Assembly (NCBI GenBank): GCA_964016885.1
Contig: OZ024740.1
Coordinates: 279,682,001-279,746,000, forward strand
Length of the DNA: 64,000 nt
Origin: Eledone cirrhosa
Taxonomy: Eukaryota
Reading direction: 5' to 3'
Shown: one piece after another, positions 1 to 49,118 of the stretch
Numbering within the stretch: the stretch's first letter is position 1
Layout: the number at the start of each line of letters is the position of its first letter
Program-made: the position numbers and the translations under genes
Notes under the pieces: generated by a model
Databases searched by the model: none
The model's input: only the letters and a program-made list of their open reading frames with translations
Told to the model about the DNA's origin: nothing

Positions 1-3000
1 AAAATGGATCCAACAAATAAAAAATGGATCACCCAAATAAAAAATGGATCACCCAAATAAAAAATGGATCACCCAAATAAAAAATGGATCCCCCAAATAA
101 AGAATGGATCACCCAAATAAAAAATGGATACCCCAAATAAAAAATGGATCCACCAAATAAAAAATGGATCACCCAAATAAAAAATGGATTACCCAAATGT
201 AAAATGGATCCCCCAAATAAAAATAGGGTCCCCCAAATAAAAATGGATCCCGCAAATAAAAAATGGATCCAACAAATAAAAAATGAATCACCCAAATAAA
301 AAATGGATCACCCAAATCAAAAATGGATCTCCCAAATAAAAAATGGATCCCCCAAATAAAAAATGGATCACCCAAATAAAAAATGGATCCCCCAAATAAA
401 AAATGGATCACCCAAATCAAAAATGGATCACCCAAATAAAAAATGGATCCCCCAAATAAAAAATGGATCACCCAAATAAAAAATGGATCACCCAAATAAA
501 AAATGGATCACCCAAATAAAAAATTGGATCACCCAAATAAAAAATGGATCCCCCAAATAAAAAATGGATCACACAAATAAAATATGGATCACCCAAATAA
601 AAAATGGATCACCCAAATAAAAAATGGATCCCCCAAATAAAAAATGGATCACCCAAATAAAAAATGGATCCCCCAAATAAAAAATGGATCTGCCAAATAA
701 AAAATGGATCACACAAATAAAAAATGGATCCCCCAAATAAAAATGGATCCGCCAAATAAAAAATGGATCACACAAATAAAAAATGGATCCCCCAAATAAA
801 AATGGATCACCCAACTAAAAAATGGATCAGCTAAATAAAAAATGGATCCCCCAAATAAAAAATGGATCACCCAAATAAAAAATGGATCCCCCAAATAAAA
901 AATGGATCCCCCAAATAAAAAATGGAACCCCAAATAAAAAATGGATCCCCCAAATAAAAAATGGATCCCCCAAATAAAAAATGGATCCAACAAATAAAAA
1001 ATGGATCACCCAAATAAAAAATGGATCCCCCAAATAAAAAATGGATCACCCAAACAAAAACTGGATCACCCAAATAAAAAATGGATCACCCAAATAAAAA
1101 ATGGATCCCCCAAATAAAAAATGGATCACCCAAATAAAAAATGGATCACCCAAATGTAAAATGGATCCCCCAAATAAAAAATGGAACCCCCAAATAAAAA
1201 ATAGATCCCCCAAATAAAAAATGGATCCAACAAATAAAAAATGGATCACCCAAATAAAAAATGGATCACCCAAATAAAAAATGGATCACCCAAATAAAAA
1301 ATGGATCACCCAAATAAAAAATGGATCCCCCAAATAAAAAATGGATCACCCAAATAAAAAATGGATACCCCAAATAAAAAATGGATCCACCAAATAAAAA
1401 ATGGATCACCCAAATAAAAAATGGATCACCCAAATGTAAAATGGATCACCCAAATGTAAAATGGACCCCCCAAATAAAAATAGGTTCCCCCAAATAAAAA
1501 TAGATCCCCCAAATAAAAAATGGATCCAACAAATAAAAAATGGATCACCAAAATAAAAAATGGGTCACCAAAATAAAAAATGGATCTCCCAAATAAAAAA
1601 TGGATCACCCAAATAAAAAATGGATCACCCAAATAAAAAATGGATCCCCCAAATAAAAAATGTATCACCCAAATAAAAAATGGATCCCCCAAATAAAAAA
1701 TGGATCACCCAAATAAAAAATGGTTCCCCCAAATAAAAAATGTATCTGCCAAATAAAAAATGGATCACACAAATAAAAAATGGATCCCCCAAATAAAAAT
1801 GGATCCGCCAAATAAAAAATGGATCACACAAATAAAAAATGGATCCCCCAAATAAAAATGGATCACCCAACTAAAAAATGGATCACCTAAATAAAAAATG
1901 GATCCCCAAATAAAAAATGGATCCCCCAAATAAAAAATGGATCCGCCAAATAAAAAATGGATCACACAAATAAAAAATGGATCCCCCAAATAAAAATGGA
2001 TCACCCAACTAAAAAATGGATCACCTAAATAAAAAATGGATCCCCCAAATAAAAAATGGATCACCCAAATAAAAAATGGAACCCCCAAATAAAAAATGGA
2101 TCCCCCAAATAAAAAATGGATCCCCCAAATAAAAAATGGATCACCCAAATAAAAAATGGATCACCCAAATGTAAAATGGATCCCCCAAATAAAAAATGGA
2201 ACCCCCAAATAAAAAATGGATCCCCCAAATAAAAAATGGATCCAACAAATAAAAAATGGATCACCCAAATAAAAAATGGATCCCCCAAATAAAAAATGGA
2301 TCACCCAAACAAAAACTGGATCACCCAAATAAAAAATGGATCACCCAAATAAAAAATGGATCCCCCAAATAAAAAATGGATCACCCAAATAAAAAATGGA
2401 TCACCCAAATGTAAAATGGATCCCCCAAATAAAAAATGGAACCCCCAAATAAAAAATGGATCCCCCAAATAAAAAATGGATCCAACAAATAAAAAATGGA
2501 TCACCCAAATAAAAAATGGATCACCCAAATAAAAAATGGATCCCCCAAATAAAGAATGGATCACCCAAATAAAAAATGGATACCCCAAATAAAAAATGGA
2601 TCCACCAAATAAAAAATGGATCACCCAAATAAAAAATGGATTACCCAAATGTAAAATGGATCCCCCAAATAAAAATAGGGTCCCCCAAATAAAAATGGAT
2701 CCCGCAAATAAAAAATGGATCCAACAAATAAAAAATGAATCACCCAAATAAAAAAGGGATCACCCAAATCAAAAATGGATCTCCCAAATAAAAAATGGAT
2801 CCCCCAAATAAAAAATGGATCACCCAAATAAAAAATGGATCCCCCAAATAAAAAATGGATCACCCAAATCAAAAATGGATCACCCAAATAAAAAATGGAT
2901 CCCCCAAATAAAAAATGGATCACCCAAATAAAAAATGGATCACCCAAATAAAAAATGGATCACCCAAATAAAAAATTGGATCACCCAAATAAAAAATGGA

Positions 3001-3520
3001 TCCCCCAAATAAAAAATGGATCACCCAACTAAAAAATGGATCAGCTAAATAAAAAATGGATCCCCCAAATAAAAAATGGATCACCCAAATAAAAAATGGA
3101 TCCCCCAAATAAAAAATGGATCCCCCAAATAAAAAATGGATCCCCCAAATAAAAAATGGATCCCCCAAATAAAAAATGGATCCAACAAATAAAAAATGGA
3201 TCACCCAAATAAAAAATGGATCACCCAAATAAAAAATGGATCACCCAAACAAAAACTGGATCACCCAAATAAAAAATGGATCACCCAAATAAAAAATGGA
3301 TCCCCCAAATAAAAAATGTATCACCCTAATAAAAAATGGATACCCCAAATAAAAAATGGATCCCCCAAATAAAAAATGGATCACCCAAATAAAAAATGGA
3401 TCACCCAAATAAAATATGGATCACCCAAATAAAAAATGGATCACCCAAATAAAAAATGGATCCCCCAAATAAAAAATGTATCACCCAAATAAAAAATGGA
3501 TCCCCCAAATAAAAAATGGA

Positions 3521-6500
3521 TCCATTTTTTATTTGAGGGATCCATTTTTTATTTGGGTGATCCATTTTTTATTTGGGTGATCCATTTTTTATTTGATGGA
3601 TCCCCAAATAAAAAATGGCCCCCCAAATAAAAAATGGATCCCCCAAATAAAAAATGGATCACCCAAATAAAAAATGGATCCCCCAAATAAAAAATGGATC
3701 ACCCAAATAAAAAATGGATCCCCCAAATAAAAAATGGATCCCCCAAATAAAAAATGGATCACCCAAATAAAAAATGGATCCCCAAATAAAAAATGGATCA
3801 CCCAAATAAAAAATAGATCCCCCAAATAAAAAATGGATCCAACAAATAAAAAATGGATCACCAAAATAAAAAATCGGTCACGAAAATAAAAAATGGATCT
3901 CCCAAATAAAAAATGGATCACCCAAATAAAAAATGGATCACCCAAATAAAAAATGGATCCCCCAAATAAAAAATGGATCACCCAAATCAAAAATGGATCA
4001 CCCAAATAAAAAATGGATCACCCAAATAAAAAATGGATCACCCAAATAAAAAATGGATCCCCCAAATAAAAAATGCATCACCCTAATAAAAAATGGATAC
4101 CCCAAATAAAAAATGGATCCCCCAAATAAAAAATGGATCACCCAAATAAAAAATGGATCACCCAAATAAAATATGGATCACCCAAATAAAAAATGGATCA
4201 CCCAAATAAAAAATGGATCCCCCAAATAAAAAATGTATCACCCAAATAAAAAATGGATCCCCCAAATAAAAAATGGATCCATTTTTTATTTGAGGGATCC
4301 ATTTTTTATTTGGGTGATCCATATTTTATTTGGGTGATCCATTTTTTATTTGATGGATCCCCAAATAAAAAATGGCCCCCCAAATAAAAAATGGATCCCC
4401 CAAATAAAAAATGGATCACCCAAATAAAAAATGGATCCCCCAAATAAAAAATGGATCACCCAAATAAAAAATGGATCCCCCAAATAAAAAATGGATCCCC
4501 CAAATAAAAAATGGATCACCCAAATAAAAAATGGATCCCCAAATAAAAAATGGATCACCCAAATAAAAAATAGATCCCCAAAATAAAAAATGGATCACCC
4601 AAATAAAGAATGGATCACCCAAATAAAAAATGGATCACCCAAATAAAAAATCGATCCCCTAAATAAAATATGGATCACCCAAATAAAAAATGGATCCCCC
4701 AAATAAAAAATGGATCACCCAAACAAAAACTGGATCAACCAAATAAAAAATGGATCCCCCAAATAAAAAATGGATCCCCCAAATAAAAAATGGATCCATT
4801 TTTTATTTGGGGGATCCATTTTTTATTTGGGTGATCCATTTTTTATTTGGCTGATCCATTTTTTATTTGGGTGATCCATATTTTATTTGATGGATCCCCC
4901 ATATAAAAAATGGAACCCCCAAATAAAAAATGGATCACCCAAATAAAAAATGGATCACCCAAATGTAAAAGGGATCCCCCAAATAAAAAATGGAACCCCC
5001 AAATAAAAAATGGATCCCCCAAATAAAAAATGGATCCAACAAATAAAAAATGGATCACCCAAATAAAAAATGGATCACCCAAATAAAAAATGGATCCCCC
5101 AAATAAAAAATGGATCCCCCAAATAAAAAATGGATCCCCAAAATAAAAAATGGATCCCCCAAATAAAAAATGGATACCCAAATAAAAAATGGATCCCCCA
5201 AATATAAAATGGATCACACAAATAAAAAATGGATCCCCCAAATAAAAAATGGATCACCCAAATAAAAAATGGATCACCCAAATAAAAAATGGATCACCCA
5301 AATAAAAAATGGATCCCCCAAATAAAAAATGGATCACCCAAATAAAAAATGGATCACCCAAATAAAAAATGGATCACCCAAATAAAAAATGGATCCCCAA
5401 AATAAAAAATGGATCACCCAAATAAAAAATGGATCCCCCAAATAGAAAATGGATCACCCAAATAAAAAATGGATCACCCAAATAAAAAATGGATCCATTT
5501 TTTATTTGGGGGATCCATTTTTTATTTGGGTGATCCATTTTTTATTTGATGGATCCCCAAATAAAAAATGGATCCCCCAAATAAAAAATGGATCTCCAAA
5601 ATAAAAAATGGATCCCCCAAATAAAAAATGGATCACCCAAATAAAAAATGGATCACCCAAATGTAAAATGTATCCCCCAAATAAAAAATGGATCCCCCAA
5701 ATAAAAATGGATCCATTTTTTATTTGGGGGATCCATTTTTTATTTGGGGGATCCATTTTTTATTTGGGTGATCCATTTTTTATTTTGGAGATCCATTTTT
5801 TATTTGGGGGATCCATTTTTTATTTGGGTGATCCATTTTTTATTTGGGTGATCCATTTTTTATTTGATGGAACCCCCAAATAAAAAATGGAACACCCAAA
5901 TAAAAAATGGATCCCCCAAATAAAAAATGGATCACCCAAATAAAAAATGGATCCCCCAAATAAAAAATGGATCACCCAAATAAAAAATGGATCCCCCAAA
6001 TAAAAAATGGATCACCCAAATAAAAAATAGATCCCCAAAATAAAAAATAGATCACCCAAATAAAAAATGGATCACCCAAATAAAAAATGGATCACCCAAA
6101 TAAAAAATGGATCCCCTAAATAAAATATGGATCACCCAAATAAAAAATGGATCCCCCAAATAAAAAATGGATCACCCAAACAAAAACTGCATCACCCAAA
6201 TAAAAAATGGATTCCCCAAATAAAAAATGGATCACCCAAATAAAAAATGGATCCATTTTTTATTTGGGGGATCCATTTTTTATTTGGGTGATGCCTTTTT
6301 TATTTGGGTGATCCATTTTTTATTTGATGGATCCCCCAAATAAAAAATGGAACCCCCAAATAAAAATGGATCCCCCAAATAAAAAATGGATCACCCAAAT
6401 AAAAAAGGGATCACCCAAATAAAAAATGGATCACCCAAATAAAAAATGGATCCCCCAAATAAAAAATGGATCACCCAATTACTAAATGGATCACCCAAAT

Positions 6501-9500
6501 GTAAAATGGATCCCCCAAATAAAAAATGGAACCCCCAAATAAAAAATGGTTCCCACAAATAAAAAATGGATCCACAAATAAAAAATGGATCACCCAAATA
6601 AAAAATGGATCACCCAAATAAAAAATGGATCCCCCAAATAAAAAATGGATCCCCAAAATAAAAAATGGATCACCCAAATAAGAAATGGATACCCAAATAA
6701 AAAATGGATCCCCCAAATATAAAATGGATCACACAAATAAAAAATGGATCCCCCAAATAAAAAATGGATCACCAAAATAAAAAATGGATCACCCAAATAA
6801 AAAATGGATCCATTTTTTATTTGGGGGATCCATTTTTTATTTGGGTGATCCATTTTTTATTTGATGGATCCCCCAAATAAAAAATGGAACCCCCAAATAA
6901 AAAATGGATCCCCCAAATAAAAAATGGATCCCCCAAATAAAAAATGGATCACCCAAATAAAAAATGGATCCCCCAAATAAAAAATGGATCACCCAAATCA
7001 AAAATGGATCACCCAAATAAAAAATGGATCCCCCAAATAAAAAATGGATCTCCAAAATAAAAAATGGATCCCCCAAATAAAAAATGGATCACCCAAATAA
7101 AAAATGGATCACCCAAATGTAAAATGGATCCCCCAAATAAAAAATGGATCCCCCAAATAAAAATGGATCCATTTTTTATTTGGGGGATCCATTTTTTATT
7201 TGAGTGATCCATTTTTTATTTGGGTGATCCATTTTTTATTTGATGGAACCCCCAAATAAAAAATGGATCCCCCAAATAAAAAATGGATCACCCAAATAAA
7301 AAATGGATCCCCCAAATAAAAAATGGATCACCCAAATAAAAAATGGATCCCCCAAATAAAAAATGGATCACCCAAATAAAAAATAGATCCCCAAAATAAA
7401 AAATAGATCACCCAAATAAAAAATGGATCACCCAAATAAAAAATGGATCACCCAAATAAAAAATGGATCCCCTAAATAAAATATGGATCACCCAAATAAA
7501 AAATGGATCCCCCAAATAAAAAATGGATCACCCAAACAAAAACTGCATCACCCAAATAAAAAATGGATTCCCCAAATAAAAAATGGATCACCCAAATAAA
7601 AAATGGATCCATTTTTTATTTGGGGGATCCATTTTTTATTTGGGTGATCCCTTTTTTATTTGGGTGATCCATTTTTTATTTGACGGATCCCCCAAATAAA
7701 AAATGGAACCCCCAAATAAAAATGGATCCCCCAAATAAAAAATGGATCACCCAAATAAAAAAGGGATCACCCAAATAAAAAATGGATCACCCAAATAAAA
7801 AATGGATCCCCCAAATAAAAAATGGATCACCCAATTACTAAATGGATCACCCAAATGTAAAATGGATCCCCCAAATAAAAAATGGAACCCCCAAATAAAA
7901 AATGGATCCCACAAATAAAAAATGGATCCACAAATAAAAAATGGATCACCCAAATAAAAAATGGATCACCCAAATAAAAAATGGATCCCCCAAATAAAAA
8001 ATGGATCCCCAAAATAAAAAATGGATCACCCAAATAAGAAATGGATACCCAAATAAAAAATGGATCCCCCAAATATAAAATGGATCACACAAATAAAAAA
8101 TGGATCCCCCAAATAAAAAATGGATCACCCAAATAAAAAATGGATCACCCAAATAAAAAATGGATCACCCAAATAAAAATTGGATCGCCCAAATAAAAAA
8201 TGGATCCCCCAAATAAAAAATGGATCATCCAAATAAAAAATGGATCCCCCAAATAAAAAATGGATCACCCAAATAAAAAATGGATCACCCAAATAAAAAA
8301 TGGATCACCCAAATAAAAAATGGATCCCCCAAATAAAAAATGGATCCCCCAAATAAAAAATGGATCCATTTTTTGTTTGGGGGTCCATTTTTTATTTGGG
8401 TGATCCATTTTTTATTTGGGTGATCCATTTTTTGTTTGATGGATCCCCCAAATAAAAAATGGGACCCCCAAATAAAAAATGGATCCCCCAAATAAAAAAT
8501 GAATACCCAAATAAAAAATGGATCCCCCAAATATAAAATGGATCACACAAATAAAAAATGGATCCCCCAAATAAAAAATGGATCACCCAAATAAAAAATG
8601 GATCATCCAAATAAAAAATGGATCACCCAAATAAAAAATGGATCACCCAAATAAAAAATGGACCACCCAAATAAAAAATGGATCCCTCAAATCAAAAATG
8701 GATCACCCACATAAAAAATGGATCACCCAAATAAAAAATGGATCACCGAAATAAAAAATGGATCCCCCAAATAAAAAATGGATCACCCAAATAAAAAATG
8801 GATCACCCAAATAAAAAATGGATCCCCCGAATAAAAAATGGATCCCCCAAATAAAAAATGGATCACCCAAATAAAAAATGGATCCCCCAAATAAAAAATG
8901 GATCACCCAAATAAAAAATGGATCCCCCAAATAAAAAAATGGATCACCCAAATAAAAAATGGATCCCCAAAATAAAAAATGGATCACCCAAATAAAAAAT
9001 GGATCCCCCAAATAAAAAATGGATCACCCAAATAAAAAATGCATCACCCAAATAAAAAATGGATCACCCAAATAAAAAATGGATCCCCAAAATAAAAAAT
9101 GGATCACCCAAATAAAAAATGGATCACCCAAATAAAAAATGGATCACCCAAATAAAAAATGGATCCCCTAATTAAAATATGGATCACCCAAATAAAAAAT
9201 GGATCCCCCAAATAAAAAATGGATCACCCAAACAAAAACTGCATCACCCAAATAAAAAATGGATTCCCCAAATAAAAAATGGATCACCCAAATAAAAAAT
9301 GGATCCATTTTTTATTTGGGTGATCCATTTTTTATTTGATGGATCCCCCAAATAAAAAATGGAACCCCCAAATAAAAATGGATCACCCAAATAAAAAATG
9401 GATCCCCCAAATAAAAAATGGATCACCCAATTACTAAATGGATCACCCAAATGTAAAATGGATCCCCCAAATAAAAAATGGAACCCCCAAATAAAAAATG

Positions 9501-12500
9501 GATCCCACAAATAAAAAATGGGTCCACAAATAAAAAAATGGATCACCCAAATAAAAAATGGATCACCCAAATAAAAAATGGATCCCCCAAATAAAAAATG
9601 TATCCCCAAAATAAAAAATGGATCACCCAAATAAGAAATGGATACCCAAATAAAAAATGGATCCCCCAAATATAAAATGGATCACACAAATACAAAATGG
9701 ATCCCCCAAATAAAAAATGGATCACCCAAATAAAAAATGGATCACCCAAATAAAAAATGGATCACCCAAATAAAAAATGGATCCCCCAAATAAAAAATGG
9801 ATCCCCAAAATAAAAAATGGATCACCCAAATAAGAGATGGATACCCAAATAAAAAATGGATCCCCCAAATATAAAATGGATCACACAAATAAAAAATGGA
9901 TCCCCCAAATAAAAAATGGATCACCCAAATAAAAAATGGATCACCCAAATAAAAAATGGATCACCCAAATAAAAATTGGATCGCCCAAATAAAAAATGGA
10001 TCCCCCAAATAAAAAATGGATCATCCAAATAAAAAATGGATCCCCCAAATAAAAAATGGATCACCCAAATAAAAAATGGATCACCCAAATAAAAAATGGA
10101 TCACCCAAATAAAAAATGGATCCCCCAAATATAAAATGGATCCCCCAAATAAAAAATGGATCCATTTTTTCTTTGGGGGGTCCATTTTTTATTTGGGTGA
10201 TCCATTTTTTATTTGGGTGATCCATTTTTTATTTGATGGATCCCCCAAATAAAAAATGGGACCCCCAAATAAAAAATGGATCCCCCAAATAAAAAATGAA
10301 TACCCAAATAAAAAATGGATCCCCCAAATATAAAATGGATCACACAAATAAAAAATGGATCCCCCAAATAAAAAATGGATCACCCAAATAAAAAATGGAT
10401 CACCCAAATAAAAAATGGATCACCCAAATAAAAAATGGATCACCCAAATAAAAAATGGACCACCCAAATAAAAAATGGATCCCTCAAATCAAAAATGGAT
10501 CACCCACATAAAAAATGGATCACCCAAATAAAAAATGGATCACCGAAATAAAAAATGGATCCCCCAAATAAAAAATGGATCACCCAAATAAAAAATGGAT
10601 CACCCAAATAAAAAATGGATCCCCCGAATAAAAAATGGATCCCCCAAATAAAAAATGGATCACCCAAATAAAAAATGGATCCCCCAAATAAAAAATGGAT
10701 CACCCAAATAAAAAATGGATCCCCCAAATAAAAAATGGATCACCCAAATAAAAAATGGATCCCCAAAATAAAAAATGGATCACCCAAATAAAAAATGGAT
10801 CCCCCAAATAAAAAATGGATCACCCAAATAAAAAATGCATCACCCAAATAAAAAATGGATCACCCAAATAAAAAATGGATCCCCAAAATAAAAAATGGAT
10901 CACCCAAATAAAAAATGGATCACCCAAATAAAAAATGGATCACCCAAATAAAAAATGGATCCCCTAAATAAAATATGGATCACCCAAATAAAAAATGGAT
11001 CCCCCAAATAAAAAATGGATCACCCAAACAAAAACTGCATCACCCAAATAAAAAATGGATTCCCCAAATAAAAAATGGATCACCCAAATAAAAAATGGAT
11101 CCATTTTTTATTTGGGGGATCCATTTTTTATTTGGGTGATCCCTTTTTTATTTGGGTGATCCATTTTTTATTTGATGGATCCCCCAAATAAAAAATGGAA
11201 CCCCCAAATAAAAATGGATCCCCCAAATAAAAAATGGATCACCCAAATAAAAAAGGGATCACCCAAATAAAAAATGGATCACCCAAATAAAAAATGGATC
11301 CCCCAAATAAAAAATGGATCACCCAATTACTAAATGGATCACCCAAATGTAAAATGGATCCCCCAAATAAAAAATGGAACCCCCAAATAAAAAATGGATC
11401 CCACAAATAAGAAATGGATCCACAAATAAAAAATGGCTCACCCAAATAAAAAATGGATCACCCAAATAAAAAATGGATCCCCCAAATAAAAAATGGATCC
11501 CCAAAATAAAAAATGGATCACCCAAATAAGAAATGGATACCCAAATAAAAAATGGATCCCCCAAATATAAAATGGATCACACAAATAAAAAATGGATCCC
11601 CCAAATAAAAAATGGATCACCCAAATAAAAAATGGATCACCCAAATAAAAAATGGATCACCCAAATAAAAATTGGATCGCCCAAATAAAAAATGGATCCC
11701 CCAAATAAAAAATGGATCATTCAAATAAAAAATGGATCCCCCAAATAAAAAATGGATCACCCAAATAAAAAATGGATCACCCAAATAAAAAATGGATCAC
11801 CCAAATAAAAAATGGATCCCCCAAATAAAAAATGGATCCCCCAAATAAAAAATGGATCCATTTTTTGTTTGGGGGTCCATTTTTTATTTGGGTGATCCAT
11901 TTTTTATTTGGGTGATCCATTTTTTGTTTGATGGATCCCCCAAATAAAAAATGGGACCCCCAAATAAAAAATGGATCCCCCAAATAAAAAATGAATACCC
12001 AAATAAAAAATGGATCCCCCAAATATAAAATGGATCACACAAATAAAAAATGGATCCCCCAAATAAAAAATGGATCACCCAAATAAAAAATGGATCACCC
12101 AAATAAAAAATGGATCACCCAAATAAAAAATGGATCACCCAAATAAAAAATGGACCACCCAAATAAAAAATGGATCCCTCAAATCAAAAATGGATCACCC
12201 ACATAAAAAATGGATCACCCAAATAAAAAATGGATCACCGAAATAAAAAATGGATCCCCAAATAAAAAATGGATCACCCAAATAAAAAATGGATCACCCA
12301 AATAAAAAATGGATCCCCCGAATAAAAAATGGATCCCCTAAATAAAATATGGATCACCCAAATAAAAAATGGATCCCCCAAATAAAAAATGGATCACCCA
12401 AACAAAAACTGCATCACCCAAATAAAAAATGGATTCCCCAAATAAAAAATGGATCACCCAAATAAAAAATGGATCCATTTTTTATTTGGGGGATCCATTT

Positions 12501-15500
12501 TTTATTTGGGTGATCCCTTTTTTATTTGGGTGATCCATTTTTTATTTGATGGATCCCCCAAATAAAAAATGGAACCCCCAAATAAAAATGGATCCCCCAA
12601 ATAAAAAATGGATCACCCAAATAAAAAAGGGATTACCCAAATAAAAAATGGATCACCCAAATAAAAAATGGATCCCCCAAATAAAAAATGGATCACCCAA
12701 TTACTAAATGAATCACCCAAATGTAAAATGGATCCCCCAAATAAAAAATGGAACCCCCAAATAAAAAATGGATCCCACAAACAAAAAATGGATCCACAAA
12801 TAAAAAATGGATCACCCAAATAAAAAATGGATCACCCAAATAAAAAATGGATCCCCCAAATAAAAAATGGATCCCCAAAATAAAAAATGGATCACCCAAA
12901 TAAGAAATGGATACCCAAATAAAAAATGGATCCCCCAAATATAAAATGGATCGCACAAATAAAAAATGGATCCCCCAAATAAAAAATGGATCACCCAAAT
13001 AAAAAATGGATCACCCAAATAAAAAATGGATCCCCCAAATAAAAAATGGATCATCCAAATAAAAAATGGATCCCCCAAATAAAAAATGGATCACCCAAAT
13101 AAAAAATGGATCACCCAAATAAAAAATGGATCACCCAAATAAAAAATGGATCCCCCAAATAAAAAATGGATCCCCCAAATAAAAAATGGATCCATTTTTT
13201 GTTTGGGGGGTCCATTTTTTATTTGGGTGATCCATTTTTTATTTGGGTGATCCATTTTTTATTTGATGGATCCCCCAAATAAAAAATGGGACCCCCAAAT
13301 AAAAAATGGATCCCCCAAATAAAAAATGAATACCCAAATAAAAAATGGATCCCCCAAATATAAAATGGATCACACAAATAAAAAATGGATCCCCCAAATA
13401 AAAAATGGATCACCCAAATAAAAAATGGATCACCCAAATAAAAAATGGATCACCCAAATAAAAAATGGATCACCCAAATAAAAAATGGACCACCCAAATA
13501 AAAAATGGATCCCTCAAATCAAAAATGGATCACCCACATAAAAAATGGATCACCCAAATAAAAAATGGATCACCGAAATAAAAAATGGATCCCCCAAATA
13601 AAAAATGGATCACCCAAATAAAAAATGGATCACCCAAATAAAAAATGGATCCCCCGAATAAAAAATGGATCCCCCAAATAAAAAATGGATCACCCAAATA
13701 AAAAATGGATCCCCCAAATAAAAAATGGATCACCCAAATAAAAAATGTATCCCCCAAATAAAAAAATGGATCACCCAAATAAAAAATGGATCCCCAAAAT
13801 AAAAAATGGATCACCCAAATAAAAAATGGATCCCCCAAATAAAAAATGGATCACCCAAATAAAAAATGCATCACCCAAATAAAAAATGGATCACCCAAAT
13901 AAAAAATGGATCCCCAAAATAAAAAATGGATCACCCAAATAAAAAATGGATCACCCAAATAAAAAATGGATCACCCAAATAAAAAATGGATCCCCTAAAT
14001 AAAATATGGATCACCCAAATAAAAAATGGATCCCCCAAATAAAAAATGGATCACCCAAACAAAAACTGCATCACCCAAATAAAAAATGGATTCCCCAAAT
14101 AAAAAATGGATCACCCAAATAAAAAATGGATCCATTTTTTATTTGGGGGATCCATTTTTTATTTGGGTGATCCCTTTTTTATTTGGGTGATCCATTTTTT
14201 ATTTGATGGATCCCCCAAATAAAAAATGGAACCCCCAAATAAAAATGGATCCCCCAAATAAAAAATGGATCACCCAAATAAAAAAGGGATCACCCAAATA
14301 AAAAATGGATCACCCAAATAAAAAATGGATCCCCCAAATAAAAAATGGATCACCCAATTACTAAATGGATCACCCAAATGTAAAATGGATCCCCCAAATA
14401 AAAAATGGAACCCCCAAATAAAAAATGGATCCCACAAATAAAAAATGGATCCACAAATAAAAAATGGATCACCCAAATAAAAAATGGATCACCCAAATAA
14501 AAAATGGATCCACCAAATAAAAAATGGATCCCCAAAATAAAAAATGGATCACCCAAATAAGAAATGGATACCCAAATAAAAAATGGATCCCCCAAATATA
14601 AAATGGATCACACAAATAAAAAATGGATCCCCCAAATAAAAAATGGATCACCCAAATAAAAAATGGATCACCCAAATAAAAAATGGATCACCCAAATAAA
14701 AATTGGAACGCCCAAATAAAAAATGGATCCCCCAAATAAAAAATGGATCATCCAAATAAAAAATGGATCCCCCAAATAAAAAATGGATCACCCAAATAAA
14801 AAATGGATCACTCAAATAAAAAATGGATCACCCAAATAAAAAATGGATCCCCCAAATAAAAAATGGATCCCCCAAATAAAAAATGGATCCATTTTTTGTT
14901 TGGGGGGTCCATTTTTTATTTGGGTGATCCATTTTTTATTTGGGTGATCCATTTTTTATTTGATGGATCCCCCAAATAAAAAATGGGACCCCCAAATAAA
15001 AAATGGATCCCCCAAATATAAAATGGATCACACAAATAAAAAATGGATCCCCCAAATAAAAAATGGATCACCCAAATAAAAAATGGATCACCCAAATAAA
15101 AAATGGATCCCCCGAATAAAAAATGGATCCCCCAAATAAAAAATGGATCACCCAAATAAAAAATGGATCCCCCAAATAAAAAATGGATCACCCAAATAAA
15201 AAATGGATCCCCCAAATAAAAAATGGATCACCCAAATAAAAAATGGATCCCCAAAATAAAAAATGGATCACCCAAATAAAAAATGGATCCCCCAAATAAA
15301 AAATGGATCACCCAAATAAAAAATGCATCACCCAAATAAAAAATGGATCACCCAAATAAAAAATGGATCCCCAAAATAAAAAATGGATCATCCAAATAAA
15401 AAATGGATCACCCAAATAAAAAATGGATCCTACAAATAAAAAATGGATCACCCAAATAAAAAATGGATCACCCAAATAAAAAATGGATCCATTTTTTACT

Positions 15501-17595
15501 TGGGGGATCCATTTTTTATTTGGGTGATACAGTTTTTATTTGGGTGATCCATTTTTTATTTGATGGATCCCCCAAATAGAAAATGGATACCCAAATAAAA
15601 AATGGATGCCCCAAATATAAAATGGATCACACAAATAAAAAATGGATCCCCCAAATAAAAAATGGATCACCCAAATAAAAAATGGATCAGCCAAATAAAA
15701 AATGGATCACCCAAATAAAAAATGGATCCCCCAAATAAAAAATGGATCCCCAAAATAAAAAATGGATCCCCCAAATAAAAAATGGATACCCAAATAAAAA
15801 ATGGATCCCCCAAATATAAAATGGATCACACAAATAAAAAATGGATCCCCCAAATAAAAAATGGATCACCCAAATAAAAAATGGATCACCCAGATAAAAA
15901 ATGGATCACCCAAATAAAAAATGGATCCCCCAAATAAAAAATGGATCACCCAAATAAAAAATGGATCCCCCAAATAAAAAATGGATCACCCAAATAAAAA
16001 ATGGATCCCCAAAATAAAAAATGGATCACCCAAATAAAAAATGGATCCCCCAAATAAAAAATGGATCACCCAAATAAAAAATGGATCACCCAAATAAAAA
16101 CTGGATCACCCAAATAAAAAATGGATCCCCAAAATAAAAAATGGATCACCCAAATAAAAAATGGATCACCCAAATAAAAAATGGATCCTACAATTAAAAA
16201 ATGGATCACCCTAATAAAAAATGGATCACCCAAATAAAAAATGGATCACCCAAATAAAAAATGGATCCCCCAAATAAAAAATGGATCCCCAAAATAAAAA
16301 ATGGATCCCCCAAATAAAAAATGGATACCCAAATAAAAAATGGATCCCCCAAATATAAAATGGATCACACAAATAAAAAATGGATCCCCCAAATAAAAAA
16401 TGGATCACCCAAATAAAAAATGGATCACCCAAATAAAAAATGGATCCCCCAAATAAAAAATGGATCACCCAAATAAAAAATGGATCCCCCAAATAAAAAA
16501 TGGATCCCCTAAATAAAAAATGGATAACCCAAATAAAAAATGGATCCCCAAAATAAAAAATGGATCACCCAAATAAAAAATGGATCCCCCAAATAAAAAA
16601 TGGATCACCCAAATAAAAAATGGATCCCCAAAATAAAAAATGGATCACCCAAATAAAAAATGGATCCCCCAAATAAAAAATGGATCACCCAAATAAAGAA
16701 TGGATCACCCAAATAAAAAATGGATCCTACAAATAAAAAATGGATCACCCAAATAAAAAATGGATCACCCAAATAAAAAATGGATCACCCAAATAAAAAA
16801 TGGATCCCTCAAATAAAAAATGGACCCCAAAATAAAAAATGGATCCCCCAAATAAAAAATGGATACCCAAATAAAAAATGGATCCCCCAAATATAAAATG
16901 GATCACACAAATAAAAAATGGATCCCCCAAATAAAAAATGGATCACCCAAATAAAAAATGGATCACCCAAATAAAAAATGGACCACCCAAATAAAATATG
17001 GATCGCCCAAATAAAAAATGGATCCCTCAAATAAAAAATGGATCACCCAAATAAAAAATGGATACCCCAAATAAAAAATGGATCACCTAAATAAAAAATG
17101 GATCCCCCAAATAAAAAATGGATCACCCAAATAAAAAATGGATCCCCCAAATAAAAAATGGATCCGCCAAATAAAAAATGGATCACACAAATAAAAAATG
17201 GATCCCCCAAATAAAAATGGATCACCCAACTAAAATATGGATCACCTAAATAAAAAATGGATCCCCCAAATAAAAAATGGATCACCCAAATAAAAAATGG
17301 ATCCCCCAAATAAAAAATGGATCCCCCAAATAAAAAATGGATCACCCAAATAAAAAATGGATCCCCCAAATAAAAAATGGATCACCCAAATAAAAAATAG
17401 ATCCCCAAAATAAAAAATGGATCACCCAAATAAAAAATGGATCACCCAAATAAAAAATGGATAACCAAATAAAAAATGGATCACCCAAACAAAAACTGGT
17501 TCACCCAAATAAAAAATGGATCACCCAAATAAAAAATGGATCCATTTTTTATTTGGGGGATCCATTTTCTATTTGGGTGATCCATTTTTTATTTG
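3521..17595 (-). repeat. 20 short inverted blocks (about 2-8 units) of the 20-bp satellite embedded in the forward array
   Basis: Reverse-complement units (GATCCATTTTTTATTTGGG) at approx. 3521-3595, 4278-4352, 4795-4889, 5494-5548, 5712-5866, 6252-6326, 6809-6863, 7168-7242, 7608-7682, 8365-8438, 9304-9338, 10161-10235, 11100-11174, 11857-11930, 12474-12548, 13191-13265, 14131-14205, 14888-14962, 15488-15562, 17541-17595. Confidence 0.95.
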
Positions 17596-18118
17596 ATGGA
17601 TCCCCCAAATGAAAAATGGAACCCCCAAATAAAAAATGGATCCCCCAAATAAAAAATGGATCACCCAAATAAAAAATGGATCCCCCAAATAAAAAATGGA
17701 TCACCCAAATAAAAAATGGATCCCCCAAATAAAAAATGGATCACCCAAATAAAAAATGGATCACCCAAACAAAAAATGGATCAGCCAAATAAAAAATGAA
17801 TCACCCAAATAAAAATTGGATCGCCCAAATAAAAAATGGATCCCCCAAATAAAAAATGGATCATCCAAATAAAAAATGGATCCCCCAAATAAAAAATGGA
17901 TCACCCAAATAAAAAATGCATCACCCAAATAAAAAATGGATCACCCAAATAAAAAATGGATCACCCAAATAAAAAATGGATCCCCCAAATAAAAAATGGA
18001 TCACCCAAATAAAAAATGGATCCCCCAAATAAAAAATGGATCACCCAAATAAAAAATGGATCACCCAAATAAAAAATGGATCCCCCAAATAAAAAATGGA
18101 TCACCCAAATAAAAAATG

Positions 18119-18122
18119 GATC
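18119..18122. other. Junction between the two satellite arrays at a shared GATC microhomology
   Basis: ...AAAAAATG-GATC-GTGGGCCGGCC...: the GATC fits both the 20-mer (ATGGATC) and the 196-mer (TTCGATCGTGGG), with no intervening sequence. Confidence 0.93.
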
Positions 18123-18347
18123 GTGGGCCGGCCGCCTTTGGTCGGATCGATCTGTAATTACTGGTCCATGTGCAGACACACATTTGCTGTGTGTGGTGTG
18201 ATTTTCAAGAAAAGCTGCCCATGCTAAATGCGGAAGCTGAAGTCCACCAGCGAATGGTGTGCTTCGAAGAAACGAATCACAAAAATGCGAATTTGCAGGC
18301 GGAGTTACCTTTTTCTCGATCGTGGGCCGGCCGCCCGTGGTCGGATC

Positions 18348-18515
18348 GATCTGTACTTACTAGGACTTGTGTAGACACTCATTGGCTATGTGTGGCGTGA
18401 ATTTCAGCAAGATATCTCCGTAAAATCAATAGTTGTGGCTGTGTAACCAAACCGTGTTAAACGTCAACAAAGTTGTTGAGCGTAAGTTTGTTTACATTGA
18501 ACTCCTGGTGGAATC
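18348..18515. repeat. 168-bp chimeric monomer with an unrelated ~97-bp segment (first of 21 copies; higher-order repeat landmark)
   Basis: The distance between successive GATCTGTA anchors is 168 bp. Segment GCAAGATATCTCC...TTTACATTGAACT (18407-18503) replaces ~125 bp of the normal monomer. Its internal TTAAACG occurs at 18457, 19413, 22924, 23684, 26021, 28157, 32062, 33018, 35744, 38469, 40605, 44510, 45466, 48192, 49344, 51482, 52438, 54772, 57498, 60028 and 62361. Confidence 0.95.
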
Positions 18516-21299
18516 GATCTGTAATTACTGGTACATGTGCAGACACACATTGGTCGTGTGTGGTGTGATTTTCAAAAAAAACTGCCCATGCTAAATGCGG
18601 AAGCTGAAGTCCACCAGCGAATGGTGTGCTTCGAAGAAACGAATCACAAAAATGCGAATTTGCTGGCGGAGTTACCTTTTCGATCGTGGGCCGGCCGCCT
18701 ATTGTCGGATCGATCTGTAATTACTGGTCCATATGCAGAGACACGTTTACTGTGTGTGGTGTGATTTTCAAGAAAAGCTGCCCATGCTAAATGAGGAAGC
18801 TGAAGTCCACCAGCGAATTGTGTGCTTCGAAGGAAACGAATCACAAAAATGACGATTTGCCGGCGGAGTTACCTTTTCGATGGTGGGCCGGCCGCCCGTG
18901 GTCGGATCGATCTGTAATTACTGTTCTATGTGCAGACACTCATTGGCTTGTTGTGGTGTGATTTTCAAGAAAAACTGCCCATGCTAAATGAGGAAGCTGA
19001 AGTCCACCAGCGAATGGTGTGCTTCGAAGAAACGAATCACAAAAATGCGAATTTGCCGGCGGAGTTACCTTTTCGATCGTGGGCCGGCCGCCTATGGTCG
19101 GATCGATCTGTAATTACTGGTCCATGTGCATACACACATTTGCTGTGTGTGGTGTGATTTTCAAAAAAAGCTGCCCATGCTAAATGCGGAAGCTGAAGTC
19201 CACCAGCGAATGGTGTGCTTCGAAGAAACGAATCACAAAAATGCGAATTTGCCGGCGGAGTTACCTTTTTCTCGATCGTGGGCCGGCCGCCCGTGGTCGC
19301 ATCGATCTGTACTTACTGGGACTTGTGTAGACACTCATTGGCTATGTGTGGCGTGAATTACAGCAAGATATCTCCGTAAAATCAATAGTTGTGGCTGTGT
19401 AACCAAACCGTGTTAAACGTCAACAAAGTTGTTGAGCGTAAGTTTGTTTACATTGAACTCGTGGTGGAATCGATCTGTAATTACTGGTACATGTGCAGAC
19501 ACACATTGGTCGTGTGTGGTGTGATTTTCAAAAAAAACTGCCCATGCTAAATTAGGCAGCTGAAGTCTACCAGCGAATGGTGTGCTTCGAAGAAAACGAA
19601 TCACAAAAATGACGATTTGCCGGCGGAGTTACATTTTCGATCGTGGGCCGGCCGTCCGTGGTCGGATCGATCTGTAATTACTGGTACCTGTGCAGACATA
19701 CATTTGCTGTGTGTGGTGTGATTTTCAAGAAAAGCTGCCCATGCTAAATGTGGAAGCTGAAGTCCGGCGGCGAATGGTGTGCTTCGAAGAAAACGAATCA
19801 CAAAAATGACTATTTGCCGGCGGAGTTACAATTTTCTCGATCTTGGGCCGGCCGCCCGTGGTCGGATCGATCTGTAATTACTGGTATATGTGCAGACACT
19901 CATTGGCTGTGTGTGGTGTGATTTTCATGAAAAGCTTCCCATGCTAAATGAGGAAGCTGAAGTCCACCAGCGAATGGTGTGCTTCGAAGAAACGAATCAC
20001 AAAAATGCGAATTTGCCGGCGGAGTTACCTTTTCGATCGTGGGCCGGCCGCCCGTGGTAGGATCGATCTGTAATTACTGGTACATGTGCAGACACTCATT
20101 GGCTGTGTGTGGTGTGATTTTCAAGAAAAGCTGCCCATGCTAAATGCGGAAGCTGAAGTCCGGCGGCGAATGGTGTGCTTCGAAGAAAACGAATCACAAA
20201 AATGACTATTTGCCGGCGGAGTTACCTTTTCGATGGTGGGCCGGCCGCCCGTGTTCGGATCGATCTGTAATTACTGTTCTATGTGCAGACATTCATTGGC
20301 TTGTTGTGGTGTGATTTTCAAGAAAAACTGCCCATGCTAAATGAGGAAGCTGAAGTCCACCAGCGAATGGTGTGCTTCGAAGAAACGAATCACAAAAATG
20401 CGAATTTGCCGGCGGAGTTACCTTTTCGATCGTGGGCCGGCCGCCTATGGTCGGATCGATCTGTAATTACTGGTCCATATGCAGACACACATTTGCTGTG
20501 TGTGGTGTGATTTTCAAGAAAAACTGCCCATGCTAAATGAGGAAGCTGAAGTCCGGCGGCGAATGGTGTGCTTCGAAGAAACGAATCACAAAAATGCGAA
20601 TTTGCCTGCGGAGTTATTTTTTCGATCGTGGGCCGGCCGCCCGTGGTCGGATCGATCTGTAATTACTGGTATATGTGCAGACACTCATTGGCTGTGTGTG
20701 GTGTGATTTTCAAGAAAAGCTTCCCATGCTAAATGAGGAAGCTGAAGTCCACCAGCGAATGGTGTGCTTCGAAGAAACGAATCACAAAAATGCGAAATGC
20801 CGGCGGAGTTACCTTTTCGATCGTGGGCCGGCCGCCCGTGGTAGGATCGATCTGTAATTACTGGTACATGTGCAGACAGTCATTGGCTGTGTGTGGTGTG
20901 ATTTTCAAGAAAAGCTGCCCATGCTAAATGCGGAAGCTGAAGTCCGGCGGCGAATGGTGTGCTTCGAAGAAAACGAATCACAAAAATGACTATTTGCCGG
21001 CGGAGTTACCTTTTCGATGGTGGGCCGGCCGCCCGTGGTCGGATCGATCTGTAATTACTGTTCTATGTGCAGACACTCATTGGCTGTGTGTGGTGTGATT
21101 TTCAAGAAAAGCTGCCCATGCTAAATGCGGAAGCTGAAGTCCACCAGCGAATGGTGTGCTTCGAAGAAACGAATCACAAAAATGCGAATTTGCCGGCGGA
21201 GTTACCTTTTCGATCGTGGGCCGGCCGCCCGTGGTCGGATCGATCTGTACTTACTGGTATATGTGCAGACACTCATTGGCTGTGTGTGGTGTGATTTTC

Positions 21300-22500
21300 A
21301 AGAAAAGCCGCCCATGCTAAATGAGGCAGCTGAAGTCCACCAGCGAATGGTGTGCTTCGAAGAAACGAATCACAAAAATGCGAATTTGCCGGCGGAGTTA
21401 CCTTTTCGATCGTGGGCCGGCCGCCTATGGTTGGATCGATCTGTAATTACTGGTCCATATGCAGACACACGTTTGCTGTGTGTGGTGTGATTTTCAAGAA
21501 AAGCTGCCCATGCTAAATGAGGAAGCTGAAGTCCGGCGGCGAATGGTGTGCTTCGAAGAAAACGAATCACAAAAATGCGAATTTGCCGGCGGAGTTACCT
21601 TTTCGATCGTGGGCCGGCCGCCCGTGGTCGGATCGATCTGTAGTTACTGGTATATGTGCAGACACTCATTGGCTGTGTGTGGTGTGACTTTCAAGAAAAG
21701 CTGCCCATGCTAAATGAGGAAGCTGAAGTCCGGCGCTGAATGGTGTGCTTCGAAGAAACGAATCACAAAAATGCGAATTTGCCTGCGGAGTTATTTTTTC
21801 GATCGTGGGCCGGCCGCCCGTGGTCGGATCGATCTGTAATTACTGGTATATGTGCAGACCCTCATTGGCTGTGTGTGGTGTGATTTTCAAGAAAAGCTGC
21901 CCATGCTAAATGAGGAAGCTGAAGTCCACCAGCGAATGGTGTGCTTCGAAGAAACGAATCACAAAAATGCGAATTTGCCGGCGGAGTTACCTTTTCGATC
22001 GTGGGCCGGCCGCCTATGGTTGGATCGATCTGTAATTACTGGTCCATATGCAGACACACGTTTGCTGTGTGTGGTGTGATTTTCAAGAAAAGCTGCCCAT
22101 GCTAAATGAGGAAGCTGAAGTCCGGCGGCGAATGGTGTGCTTCGAAGAAAACGAATCACAAAAATGCGAATTTGCCGGCGGAGTTACCTTTTCGATCGTG
22201 GGCCGGCCGCCCGTGGTCGGATCGATCTGTAGTTACTGGTATATGTGCAGACACTCATTGGCTGTGTGTGGTGTGACTTTCAAGAAAAGCTGCCCATGCT
22301 AAATGAGGAAGCTGAAGTCCGGCGCTGAATGGTGTGCTTCGAAGAAACGAATCACAAAAATGCGAATTTGCCTGCGGAGTTATTTTTTCGATCGTGGGCC
22401 GGCCGCCCGTGGTCGGATCGATCTGTAATTACTGGTATATGTGCAGACCCTCATTGGCTGTGTGTGGTGTGATTTTCAAGAAAAGCTGCCCATGCTAAAT
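21300..22500. repeat. Local tandem duplication of a 3-monomer (589-bp) unit; boundaries approximate
   Basis: Rare variants CGGCGCTGAATGG (~21731, ~22320), GGTTGGATCG (~21430, ~22019) and GCAGACCCTC recur at a 589-bp offset. Identical ORFs start at 21459 and 22048. Confidence 0.85.
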
Positions 22501-36200: not shown

Positions 36201-36670
36201 GTAGTTACTGGTATATGTGCAGACACTCATTGGCTGTGTGTGGTGTGACTTTCAAGAAAAGCTGCCCATGTTAAATGAGGAAGCTGAAGTCCGGCGGTGA
36301 ATGGTGTGCTTCGAAGAAACGAATCACAAAAATGCGAATTTGCCTGCGGAGTTATCTTTTCGATCGTGGGCCGGCCGCCCGTGGTCGGATCGATCTGTAA
36401 TTACTGGTATATGTGCAGACCATCATTGGCTGTGTGTGGTGTGATTTTCAAGAAAAGCTGCCCATGCTAAATGAGGAAGCTGAAGTCCACCAGCGAATGG
36501 TGTGCTTCGAAGAAACGAATCACAAAAATGCGAATTTGCCGGCGGAGTTACCTTTTCGATCGTGGGCCGGCCGCCTATGGTCGGATCGATCTGTAATTAC
36601 TGGTCCATGTGCAGACACACATTTGCTGTGTGTGGTGTGATTTTCAAAAAAAGCTGCCCATGCTAAATGC
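24223..36670. repeat. 12,448-bp (64-monomer) tandem duplication, copy 1
   Basis: ORFs and variants from 24554 to 36413 recur at exactly +12448 (e.g. 24554/37002, 31667/44115, 36413/48861). Confidence 0.93.
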
Positions 36671-48600: not shown

Positions 48601-49118
48601 GAGTTACCTTTTCGATCGTGGGCCGGCCGCCCGTGGTCGGATCGATCTGTAGTTACTGGTATATGTGCAGACACTCATTGGCTGTGTGTGGTGTGACTTT
48701 CAAGAAAAGCTGCCCATGTTAAATGAGGAAGCTGAAGTCCGGCGGTGAATGGTGTGCTTCGAAGAAACGAATCACAAAAATGCGAATTTGCCTGCGGAGT
48801 TATCTTTTCGATCGTGGGCCGGCCGCCCGTGGTCGGATCGATCTGTAATTACTGGTATATGTGCAGACCATCATTGGCTGTGTGTGGTGTGATTTTCAAG
48901 AAAAGCTGCCCATGCTAAATGAGGAAGCTGAAGTCCACCAGCGAATGGTGTGCTTCGAAGAAACGAATCACAAAAATGCGAATTTGCCGGCGGAGTTACC
49001 TTTTCGATCGTGGGCCGGCCGCCTATGGTCGGATCGATCTGTAATTACTGGTCCATGTGCAGACACACATTTGCTGTGTGTGGTGTGATTTTCAAAAAAA
49101 GCTGCCCATGCTAAATGC
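36671..49118. repeat. 12,448-bp (64-monomer) tandem duplication, copy 2
   Basis: Same offset. Identity at +12448 starts after the mismatch at 24222/36670 and ends at 36753/49201. Confidence 0.93.

What the first reader, a model, noticed from the sequence alone, without database searches (positions are those of the whole stretch)
3521..17595. Stereotyped fold-back modules: 20 palindrome-centred strand switches in the 20-bp satellite
Seen: every inversion starts exactly at the centre of the monomer's GGA|TCC, giving a spacer-less palindrome, CAAATAAAAAATGGA|TCCATTTTTTATTTG, whose arms can extend through the inverted block (35-155 bp, imperfect at variant positions). Every block returns to forward orientation through the same non-palindromic junction, TATTTG|ATGGA (one copy has TGACGG), always followed by a C-rich unit. 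Established: spacer-less AT-rich palindromes can extrude cruciforms and are normally unstable. Inference: one template-switch event was amplified as a cassette, or the module is actively retained. About one potential cruciform per 0.7 kb could be a structural signal (dyad/non-B DNA as proposed for centromeric satellites) or a driver of array amplification.
Basis: partly seen in the sequence, partly recalled or inferred. Interest (0 to 1): 0.75.

Follow-up and report, generated by a model that had tools for sequence, protein, structure and literature searches.

The report
Inherited inversion seams in satellite DNA
A 20-base repeat flips direction 20 times here and 381 times in its whole array, nearly always through the same two seams, which are likely the two ends of one old inversion that was then copied and reshuffled; a larger array of the same repeat shows no flips where sampled, so the seams are probably passengers rather than a needed structural signal.

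Summary
Observation confirmed: 20 inverted blocks (40-160 bp) with one entry and one exit seam type. They are the right end of a 224-kb array that switches strand 381 times, 360 through these two seam families, in both polarities; the same seams occur 16 Mb away and on a second chromosome-sized contig. The exit is not non-palindromic: it pivots on the same GGA|TCC, and its two odd bases are the right half of a real variant monomer (10-bp palindrome; 52% of units in a sister array). One in-silico inversion between that variant and a normal unit reproduces both seams; between two normal units it gives an exit never found. Blocks resemble each other (1.2% mismatch), not their own mirror (11.7%), so they are inherited, not fresh fold-backs. 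215 kb sampled from a ~1.15-Mb array of the same repeat has no switch, and upstream only 11 of 170 entry seams are perfect palindromes, which argues against a required cruciform signal. It works like Tribolium macro-dyad satellites but is far denser. The scan noted this array and similar ones in this genome before. Raw-read and chromatin tests were not run.

The parts
1..18122 (+). Right end of a 224-kb array of a 20-bp satellite (two main unit types, GGATCACC and GGATCCCC cores); whole array G000:C1:279,476,340-279,700,125
3521..17600 (.). Field of 20 short inverted blocks, built by tandem duplication of higher-order units (periods 757, 1335-1797, 3030 bp); inverted paralogue at C1:296.30-296.57 Mb with a 1,239-bp exact match
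3521..3600 (-). Inverted block 1 (80 bp, entry centre to exit centre)
4278..4357 (-). Inverted block 2 (80 bp; duplicate of block 1 at period 757)
4795..4894 (-). Inverted block 3 (100 bp; longest perfect arm, 37 bp)
5494..5553 (-). Inverted block 4 (60 bp)
5712..5871 (-). Inverted block 5 (160 bp)
6252..6331 (-). Inverted block 6 (80 bp, class alpha)
6809..6868 (-). Inverted block 7 (60 bp)
7168..7247 (-). Inverted block 8 (80 bp)
7608..7687 (-). Inverted block 9 (80 bp, class alpha; exit variant TGACGG)
8365..8443 (-). Inverted block 10 (79 bp, class beta)
9304..9343 (-). Inverted block 11 (40 bp, shortened class alpha)
10161..10240 (-). Inverted block 12 (80 bp, class beta)
11100..11179 (-). 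Inverted block 13 (80 bp, class alpha)
11857..11935 (-). Inverted block 14 (79 bp, class beta)
12474..12553 (-). Inverted block 15 (80 bp, class alpha)
13191..13270 (-). Inverted block 16 (80 bp, class beta)
14131..14210 (-). Inverted block 17 (80 bp, class alpha)
14888..14967 (-). Inverted block 18 (80 bp, class beta)
15488..15567 (-). Inverted block 19 (80 bp)
17541..17600 (-). Inverted block 20 (60 bp)
18123..64000 (+). Neighbouring 196-bp satellite, used only as a control: contains 8-bp palindromes yet 0 strand switches among 215 anchors; its join to the 20-bp array is unique in the genome

Best explanation
The 20 flips are copies of two seams that likely arose together in one old inversion of a few repeat units, and were likely spread by ordinary head-to-tail duplication and by exchange between opposite-facing blocks, probably with no function of their own. 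Step 1 (shown): the family has a variant unit V in which CC after GGATCC is AT, giving a 10-bp palindrome; V shares 8 bp of inverted homology with a normal C-type unit, against 6 bp for two C units. Step 2 (inferred; the sequence fit is shown): one inversion, by two template switches or a crossover in that 8-bp homology, between a V unit and a C unit a few units away made the entry seam (both left halves) and the exit seam (both right halves), leaving no unexplained base and keeping the 20-bp register. Step 3 (shown for the window): tandem duplication of higher-order units multiplied the block. Step 4 (inferred from polarity combinations and a 17-kb palindrome): once both orientations existed, homologous exchange inside ordinary units flipped and resized blocks without making new seam types. 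Step 5 (inferred): hairpins can form on single strands, but nothing shows that they are selected.
For: Two seam families make 181 of 190 forward-to-reverse and 179 of 191 reverse-to-forward switches in the array; about 154 of 159 and 174 of 177 in 317 kb sampled at C1:295.2-296.6 Mb (two exit rows that my loose classifier had included were removed by eye); and 8 of 8 modules at the edge of the C5 array, all in the entry-then-exit polarity that the model predicts for the founder (a ninth switch there is of another type). V: 559 exact copies in the genome, 1,445 of 2,757 parsed units in a sister array at C1:295.445-295.536 Mb against 3 in the window's array, and 1 in a dispersed 4-unit copy. In-silico V-to-C inversion of natural stretches: the exit 25-mer is found 11 times in the window in 9 of 9 trials and the entry 30-mer 12 times in 7 of 9; a C-to-C inversion gives an exit found 0 times in the array and 0 times in the genome. 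One clean V-to-V pivot exists in the sister array. 31 entry seams in the array carry a TAAAT half like the commonest left half of V (724 of 1,286), a base seen in 86 of 5,928 ordinary units. Inherited, not fresh: 1.2% mismatch to the best other block against 11.7% to own mirror; mirror unit pairs at 181 seams of the array differ by 2.6 bases against a background of 1.9. Reshuffling: all four polarity pairs occur (34, 63, 27, 21); 8.3-kb arms with about 20 differences around a 1-kb spacer just upstream of the window. Dispensable: 0 switches among 10,666 units and 3,898 GGATCC sites in 215 kb of the C5 core, and all 25 plus-strand hits of a 100-mer are accounted for with none in that core.
Against: The order of events is not shown: V could itself come from a crossover between an entry and an exit seam, and the V array is not more heterogeneous than the others (0.43-0.76 against 0.40-0.62 edits per unit), so no age argument supports V being older. 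The three V units used for the reconstruction lie in the flip-dense array and could be such crossover products. The unit next to the V half of the exit seam is of the main subfamily, not the sister subfamily. At least four other seam types exist (12 + 9 copies in the array; 22 copies in the V array; single ones), so the family has inverted several times. In the window and its paralogue the entry seam is a perfect palindrome (20 of 20; 89 of 159), so perfect centres are tolerated and have expanded there. The 11.7% mirror figure is inflated by two blocks with a 1-bp indel in the flank; unit-wise the window's mirror pairs differ by 1.4 bases against a background of 1.76, a small excess of symmetry among non-independent copies. 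Only about 19% of the C5 core was read. No raw reads were examined.
Confidence: 0.62

Rival explanations
1. Same inheritance and spread, different birth: a template switch on the 6-bp GGATCC dyad copied a few units backwards and returned 3 bases out of register with no homology; V arose later when an entry and an exit seam recombined, and then expanded into the sister array.
For: It gives the same two seams and the same register; V singletons sit inside the flip-dense array (3); the V array is not more diverged; a second seam pair in the array is flanked by a short direct duplication, as template switching would leave. Short-range template switching that inverts spacers is documented (PMC8604942, passages).
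Against: It needs a homology-free return that happens to create the right half of a unit that is 52% of a sister array and also sits in a dispersed copy 236 Mb away; it does not explain the TAAAT half shared by 31 entry seams and most V units.
Confidence: 0.22
2. The seams are retained because the hairpins or cruciforms they can form mark or organise special chromatin (centromere or its border), as proposed for Tribolium macro-dyads.
For: Strong predicted single-strand folding (80-nt windows -34.7 and -26.4 against -3.9 kcal/mol); very high density (one switch per 0.59 kb over 224 kb); the same seams on two contigs; perfect-centre modules expanded in two places 16.6 Mb apart.
Against: The largest array of the repeat has no switch in 215 kb sampled; 159 of 190 entry seams and all main exit seams lack a perfect centre, while central symmetry and AT-rich centres are what favour extrusion (PMC1851657 and PMC4245961, passages) and this centre is GGATCC; spacing is irregular (40 bp to 7.5 kb); conservation of seams is what recent copying gives by itself.
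Confidence: 0.09
3. The monomer's GGATCC dyad makes fold-back inversions recur, each block being a fresh event.
For: Several independent seam types exist and some pivot on GATC; a GATC-poor sister subfamily shows 0 switches in 40 kb.
Against: Recurrent clean pivots would give symmetric exits, found 0 times in the genome; blocks are not mirrors of their flank; 3,898 GGATCC sites on C5 show no switch; the 196-bp satellite has longer dyads and no switch.
Confidence: 0.04
4. Sequencing fold-back chimeras or mis-assembly created the switches.
For: No raw reads were checked; the best public runs hold only about half of the sampled words of 17480-18520 and may be the source sample, which is no support either way.
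Against: Seams carry a hierarchy of shared point variants and higher-order periods, asymmetric marks in both polarities, and recur on two contigs; read fold-backs would give exact mirrors at random places. Local copy number could still be mis-assembled.
Confidence: 0.03

Closest known systems
Macro-dyad symmetries of Tribolium freemani TfSat01/TfSat03 (PMC12581902) and T. madens TmSat1/TmSat2 (PMC13081366); abstracts and passages seen
   Same: Uninterrupted satellite arrays made of opposite-facing subarrays; few conserved inversion-site types with no foreign sequence, shared between chromosomes; proposed hairpins, function untested.
   Different: Tribolium arrays mostly have two multi-kb subarrays (71.8% of TfSat01 arrays, median array 11.8 kb) of dominant satellites on nearly all chromosomes. 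Here one array has 382 blocks of median 329 bp, a 20-bp unit, both seam polarities, a minor satellite (61,096 exact 19-mers in 3.0 Gb), a seam-free megabase array as internal control, and a base-exact account of both seams. PMC13081366 states that such arrays were documented only in Tribolium.
Human HSat3B5 (chr9) and beta-satellite arrays with over 200 inversion breakpoints (10.1101/2021.07.12.452052; passages seen)
   Same: Short-period satellite arrays with hundreds of strand switches.
   Different: The passages seen give no seam-level stereotypy or origin; those arrays are described as large pericentromeric blocks, whereas here 381 switches fall in 224 kb.
Inverted-repeat spacer inversion and arm homogenisation by template switching (PMC8604942; passages) and fold-back inverted duplications with a spacer (PMC3907307; passages)
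   Same: Inversion between short inverted homologies (2-8 bp or about 10 bp); inverted duplication with an uncopied central spacer, like the 17-kb palindrome upstream.
   Different: Those are single events in unique sequence; here the products sit in a tandem array and were copied hundreds of times.
Palindromic AT-rich repeats, PATRR11/17/22 (PMC1851657; abstract and passages)
   Same: Spacer-less inverted repeats in AT-rich DNA.
   Different: PATRRs have 190-600 bp near-perfect palindromes with AT-rich centres; here perfect arms are 9-37 bp and the centre is GGATCC.

Membership tests
Tribolium-type macro-dyad satellite | Opposite-facing subarrays inside one uninterrupted satellite array | tested here: met
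   382 blocks in 224 kb at about 99 units per 2 kb throughout
Tribolium-type macro-dyad satellite | Few conserved inversion-site types without foreign sequence | tested here: met
   360 of 381 switches in two families, the other 21 in two more
Tribolium-type macro-dyad satellite | Same inversion sites on non-homologous chromosomes | tested here: met
   C1 (443 Mb) and C5 (135 Mb) share both seam families; that these contigs are different chromosomes is inferred from their sizes
Tribolium-type macro-dyad satellite | Arrays mostly of two multi-kilobase subarrays forming one large dyad | tested here: not met
   Median block 329 bp, hundreds per array; only one 17-kb palindrome found
Tribolium-type macro-dyad satellite | Dominant satellite in (peri)centromeric regions of nearly all chromosomes | tested here: inconclusive
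   61,096 exact 19-mers genome-wide; arrays located on C1 and C5 only, but listings are truncated; centromere position unknown
Tribolium-type macro-dyad satellite | Organisation confirmed on raw long reads | not testable with these tools
   The read-laying tool does not take long repeats; no reads examined
PATRR-type cruciform element | Long (about 190 bp or more) near-perfect palindrome with AT-rich, symmetric centre | tested here: not met
   Perfect arms 9-37 bp, centre GGATCC
PATRR-type cruciform element | Cruciform extrusion in supercoiled DNA | not testable with these tools
   Only single-strand folding was computed
Fresh fold-back (snap-back) inversion | Inverted block is the mirror copy of the adjacent flank | tested here: not met
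   1 of 20 blocks identical to own mirror, 10 of 20 identical to another block
Centromeric (CENP-A) satellite | CENP-A occupancy | not testable with these tools

The most novel reading that the evidence does not exclude
One 2-base change that lengthened a monomer's dyad licensed a single inversion, and that inversion switched parts of the satellite into a self-perpetuating zigzag state whose dense hairpin lattice is kept because it defines a distinct chromatin domain; the same repeat in a seam-free megabase array on another chromosome would then be a natural control for the long-open question whether DNA shape rather than sequence specifies centromeric chromatin, outside Tribolium.
Probability: 0.1. 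Interest if true: 0.75.

Novelty: new variant of a known kind. Interest (0 to 1): 0.3.

Why it matters
Conserved inversion seams in satellites have been read as a hint of structural function (PMC13081366, PMC12581902). This case shows how such conservation can arise without selection: both seams fit one inversion through a real variant monomer, and copying does the rest. It also offers a clean test system: the same 20-bp repeat exists as a flip-dense 224-kb array and as a ~1.15-Mb array with no switch where sampled, so chromatin or nuclease mapping could separate the effect of dyad structure from that of sequence. As it stands it is a well-resolved record of repeat turnover, not a new functional element.

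Tried and rejected
Mirror-copy (fold-back) test: negative. Symmetric exit seam expected from recurrent clean pivots: 0 in the genome. Age argument for the V array from anchor divergence (8.5% against 2.5%): rejected, because fixed subfamily differences inflate it; internal heterogeneity is similar. The first in-silico reconstruction was out of register and the second printed nothing; the valid one is. The orientation scan also flagged 11 spurious runs beyond 18,120 inside the 196-bp satellite, which were dropped. Read-level test of the seams: not run, so platform independence stays open. Literature: nine searches; 'macro-dyad' occurs in 4 listed papers, two of them only in the reference list; no paper on this satellite was found, but subscription papers are not covered and no supplement was opened (the Tribolium supplements hold the seam alignments and may bear on the comparison). 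A 325-genome centromere atlas (10.64898/2026.09.17.752431; passages) says satellites tend to lie on one strand and gave nothing on seams. Helitron origin of the repeat: a diverged relative lies beside PIF1-like helicase remnants at 2 of 5 dispersed loci, suggestive only. The organism was not established: earlier AI notes call the genome likely octopus, and a dispersed repeat resembled an octopus SINE from my recall (no call); searches with 'octopus' and 'cephalopod' listed nothing on it.
Full report
Observation. The window opens with 18.1 kb of a 20-bp satellite, followed by a 196-bp satellite. Each opens an inverted block of 40-160 bp that closes at TTTGA[TC]GG, 20 of 20. Perfect arms are 9-37 bp and reach 15 bp in 12 of 20. 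The exit seam pivots on the same GGA|TCC as the entry, with two odd bases (AT facing CC) three bases from the centre; it folds nearly as well as the entry as a single strand (-11.4 against -14.4 kcal/mol for 40 nt; uniform array -1.3). Block lengths are multiples of 20 in 18 of 20 cases.

Extent. The window is G000:C1:279,682,001-279,746,000 in a 3.0-Gb assembly. Its array runs from 279.476 to 279.700 Mb between a 19-bp and the 196-bp satellite, with 4,066 forward and 6,955 reverse units in 382 blocks (median 329 bp, range 40 bp-7.5 kb). 181 of 190 forward-to-reverse switches and 179 of 191 reverse-to-forward switches belong to the two seam families of the window; the other 9 and 12 form a second pair. 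The same two families dominate 317 kb sampled at C1:295.2-296.6 Mb (about 154 of 159 and 174 of 177; two rows removed by eye from the exit class), where the window's field has an inverted paralogue with a 1,239-bp exact match. They also form 8 modules at the edge of an array on contig C5. Genome-wide exact counts: 142 perfect entries, 226 and 261 exits of two variant classes.

Inherited, not fresh. A fold-back would copy the flank. Blocks differ from their own mirror by 11.7% (two cases inflated by an indel) and from the best other block by 1.2%; 1 of 20 equals its mirror and 10 of 20 equal another block. Unit by unit, mirror pairs differ by 1.4 bases in the window (background 1.76) and by 2.6 across 181 seams of the array (background 1.9). 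Two module classes with shared flanking variants alternate from 7.6 to 15 kb, and exact direct copies of 250-680 bp recur at periods of 757 to 7,879 bp. So the 20 modules are tandem copies.

Origin of the two seams. A short dispersed copy at C1:43.16 Mb carried a unit in which CC after GGATCC is AT, making a 10-bp palindrome. This unit, V, has 559 exact copies and makes 1,445 of 2,757 parsed units of a sister array at C1:295.445-295.536 Mb, against 3 in the window's array. V and a C-type unit share 8 bp of inverted homology; two C units share 6. Inverting a natural stretch in silico between the centre of a V unit and the centre of a downstream C unit gave an exit 25-mer found 11 times in the window in 9 of 9 trials and an entry 30-mer found 12 times in 7 of 9; the same operation between two C units gave an exit found 0 times in the array, as the genome-wide search for it had shown. 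This accounts for the odd AT, for the C-rich unit that always follows, and for the kept register. 31 entry seams also carry a TAAAT half like most V units (724 of 1,286) and unlike ordinary units (86 of 5,928), and the C5 modules are all in the polarity expected of the founder. The direction is inferred: V could instead be the product of a crossover between the two seams, and heterogeneity gives no age order. The CC-to-AT change itself perfects a dyad, as template-switch arm homogenisation does (PMC8604942, passages); that is inference.

Later reshuffling. Both seams have asymmetric marks, and all four polarity pairs occur in the array (34, 63, 27, 21), which a fixed cassette cannot give. Just upstream of the window lies an inverted duplication with arms of about 8.3 kb, about 20 differences, and a spacer of about 1 kb holding one ordinary entry seam off the axis, like fold-back duplications with a spacer (PMC3907307, passages). 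Exchange between opposite-facing ordinary units would flip and resize blocks without new seam types (inference). The longest exact copies are still head-to-tail (7.3 and 5.3 kb against 2.2 and 1.5 kb inverted).

Function. Most of this satellite lies in a C5 array from about 64.46 to 65.6 Mb. In 215 kb sampled there (about 19%), 10,666 units with 3,898 GGATCC sites show no switch, and none of the 25 plus-strand hits of a 100-mer lies in that core. The 196-bp neighbour has 8-bp dyads and no switch in 46 kb; the 19-bp neighbour none in 14 kb; a GATC-poor sister subfamily none in 40 kb. Perfect centres are the exception: 31 of 190 entry seams, 20 of them in the window. Extrusion is favoured by long arms, central symmetry and AT-rich centres (PMC1851657 and PMC4245961, passages); this centre is GGATCC. 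Against this reading, perfect-centre modules have expanded in the window and in its paralogue, and no chromatin data could be examined, so a role is not excluded.

Comparison. The closest described system is the macro-dyad organisation of Tribolium satellites, with few conserved inversion sites shared between chromosomes and an untested structural role (PMC12581902, PMC13081366; abstracts and passages). Three features are met, one is not (two multi-kb subarrays per array), one is inconclusive and one could not be tested, so this works like that system without being filed as a member. Human HSat3B5 and beta satellites also hold over 200 strand switches (10.1101/2021.07.12.452052, passages). Nine literature searches found no description of this repeat; supplements were not opened. 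Earlier notes of this scan describe the same array in the adjacent window and the C1:296 Mb cluster, and similar seams in other satellites of this genome; they are unchecked AI notes. Their short texts do not mention the V unit or the seam-free C5 array.

Verdict. Real, stereotyped and explained mostly by descent: a new, unusually dense variant of amplified satellite inversion seams. Interest 0.3; the functional reading has about a 1 in 10 chance and would deserve 0.75.

Noticed in passing
L023:4115-6790 (C1:163.63 Mb), L028:2520-5205, L026, L027: A diverged ~20-bp relative of the satellite, joined to an 18/30-bp minisatellite, is dispersed at four loci; at two it lies beside PIF1-like helicase remnants (PF05970, E 3.5e-46 in L028; PF21530 below cut-off in L023), possibly a Helitron-borne source of the repeat. 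At C1:163.63 Mb the whole unit is tandem with a 4.4-kb period.
   Followed up: partly
L026:2535-3005 (C1:145.46 Mb): A dispersed copy of the relative has its own strand switch with a different seam, an independent inversion.
   Followed up: partly
C1:279,479,603 and 11 further places (L013, L014, L019-L022): A second seam pair encloses a ~4-unit inverted block flanked by a direct duplication of about two units, and one of its seams is another spacer-less palindrome; looks like a separate template-switch event.
   Followed up: partly
L032, L040, L085, L088, L089 (C1:295.24-295.37 and 296.155-296.21 Mb): Composite repeat units join flip-containing 20-bp blocks to a ~21-bp minisatellite and a ~14-bp minisatellite; the two clusters 0.9 Mb apart look like copies of each other.
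   Followed up: partly
C1:279.2-280.1 Mb and 295.2-296.64 Mb (L050-L054, L012, L035, L038, L109): Both regions are patchworks of abutting short-period satellites (16, 19, 20, 25-27, 32, 33, 196, 227 bp); the sequence probed between them looks ordinary.
   Followed up: no
L047, L098-L102 (C1:296.57-296.64 Mb) and L110-L112 (C5:64.33-64.36 Mb): A more diverged GATC-poor sister subfamily of the 20-bp repeat flanks the homogeneous arrays on both contigs, a layered pattern.
   Followed up: partly
window 18330-18505 and about every 1-4 kb to 64000: The 196-bp satellite is interrupted at intervals by a longer variant unit (gaps of about 97 bp between the arrays), suggesting a higher-order structure.
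   Followed up: no
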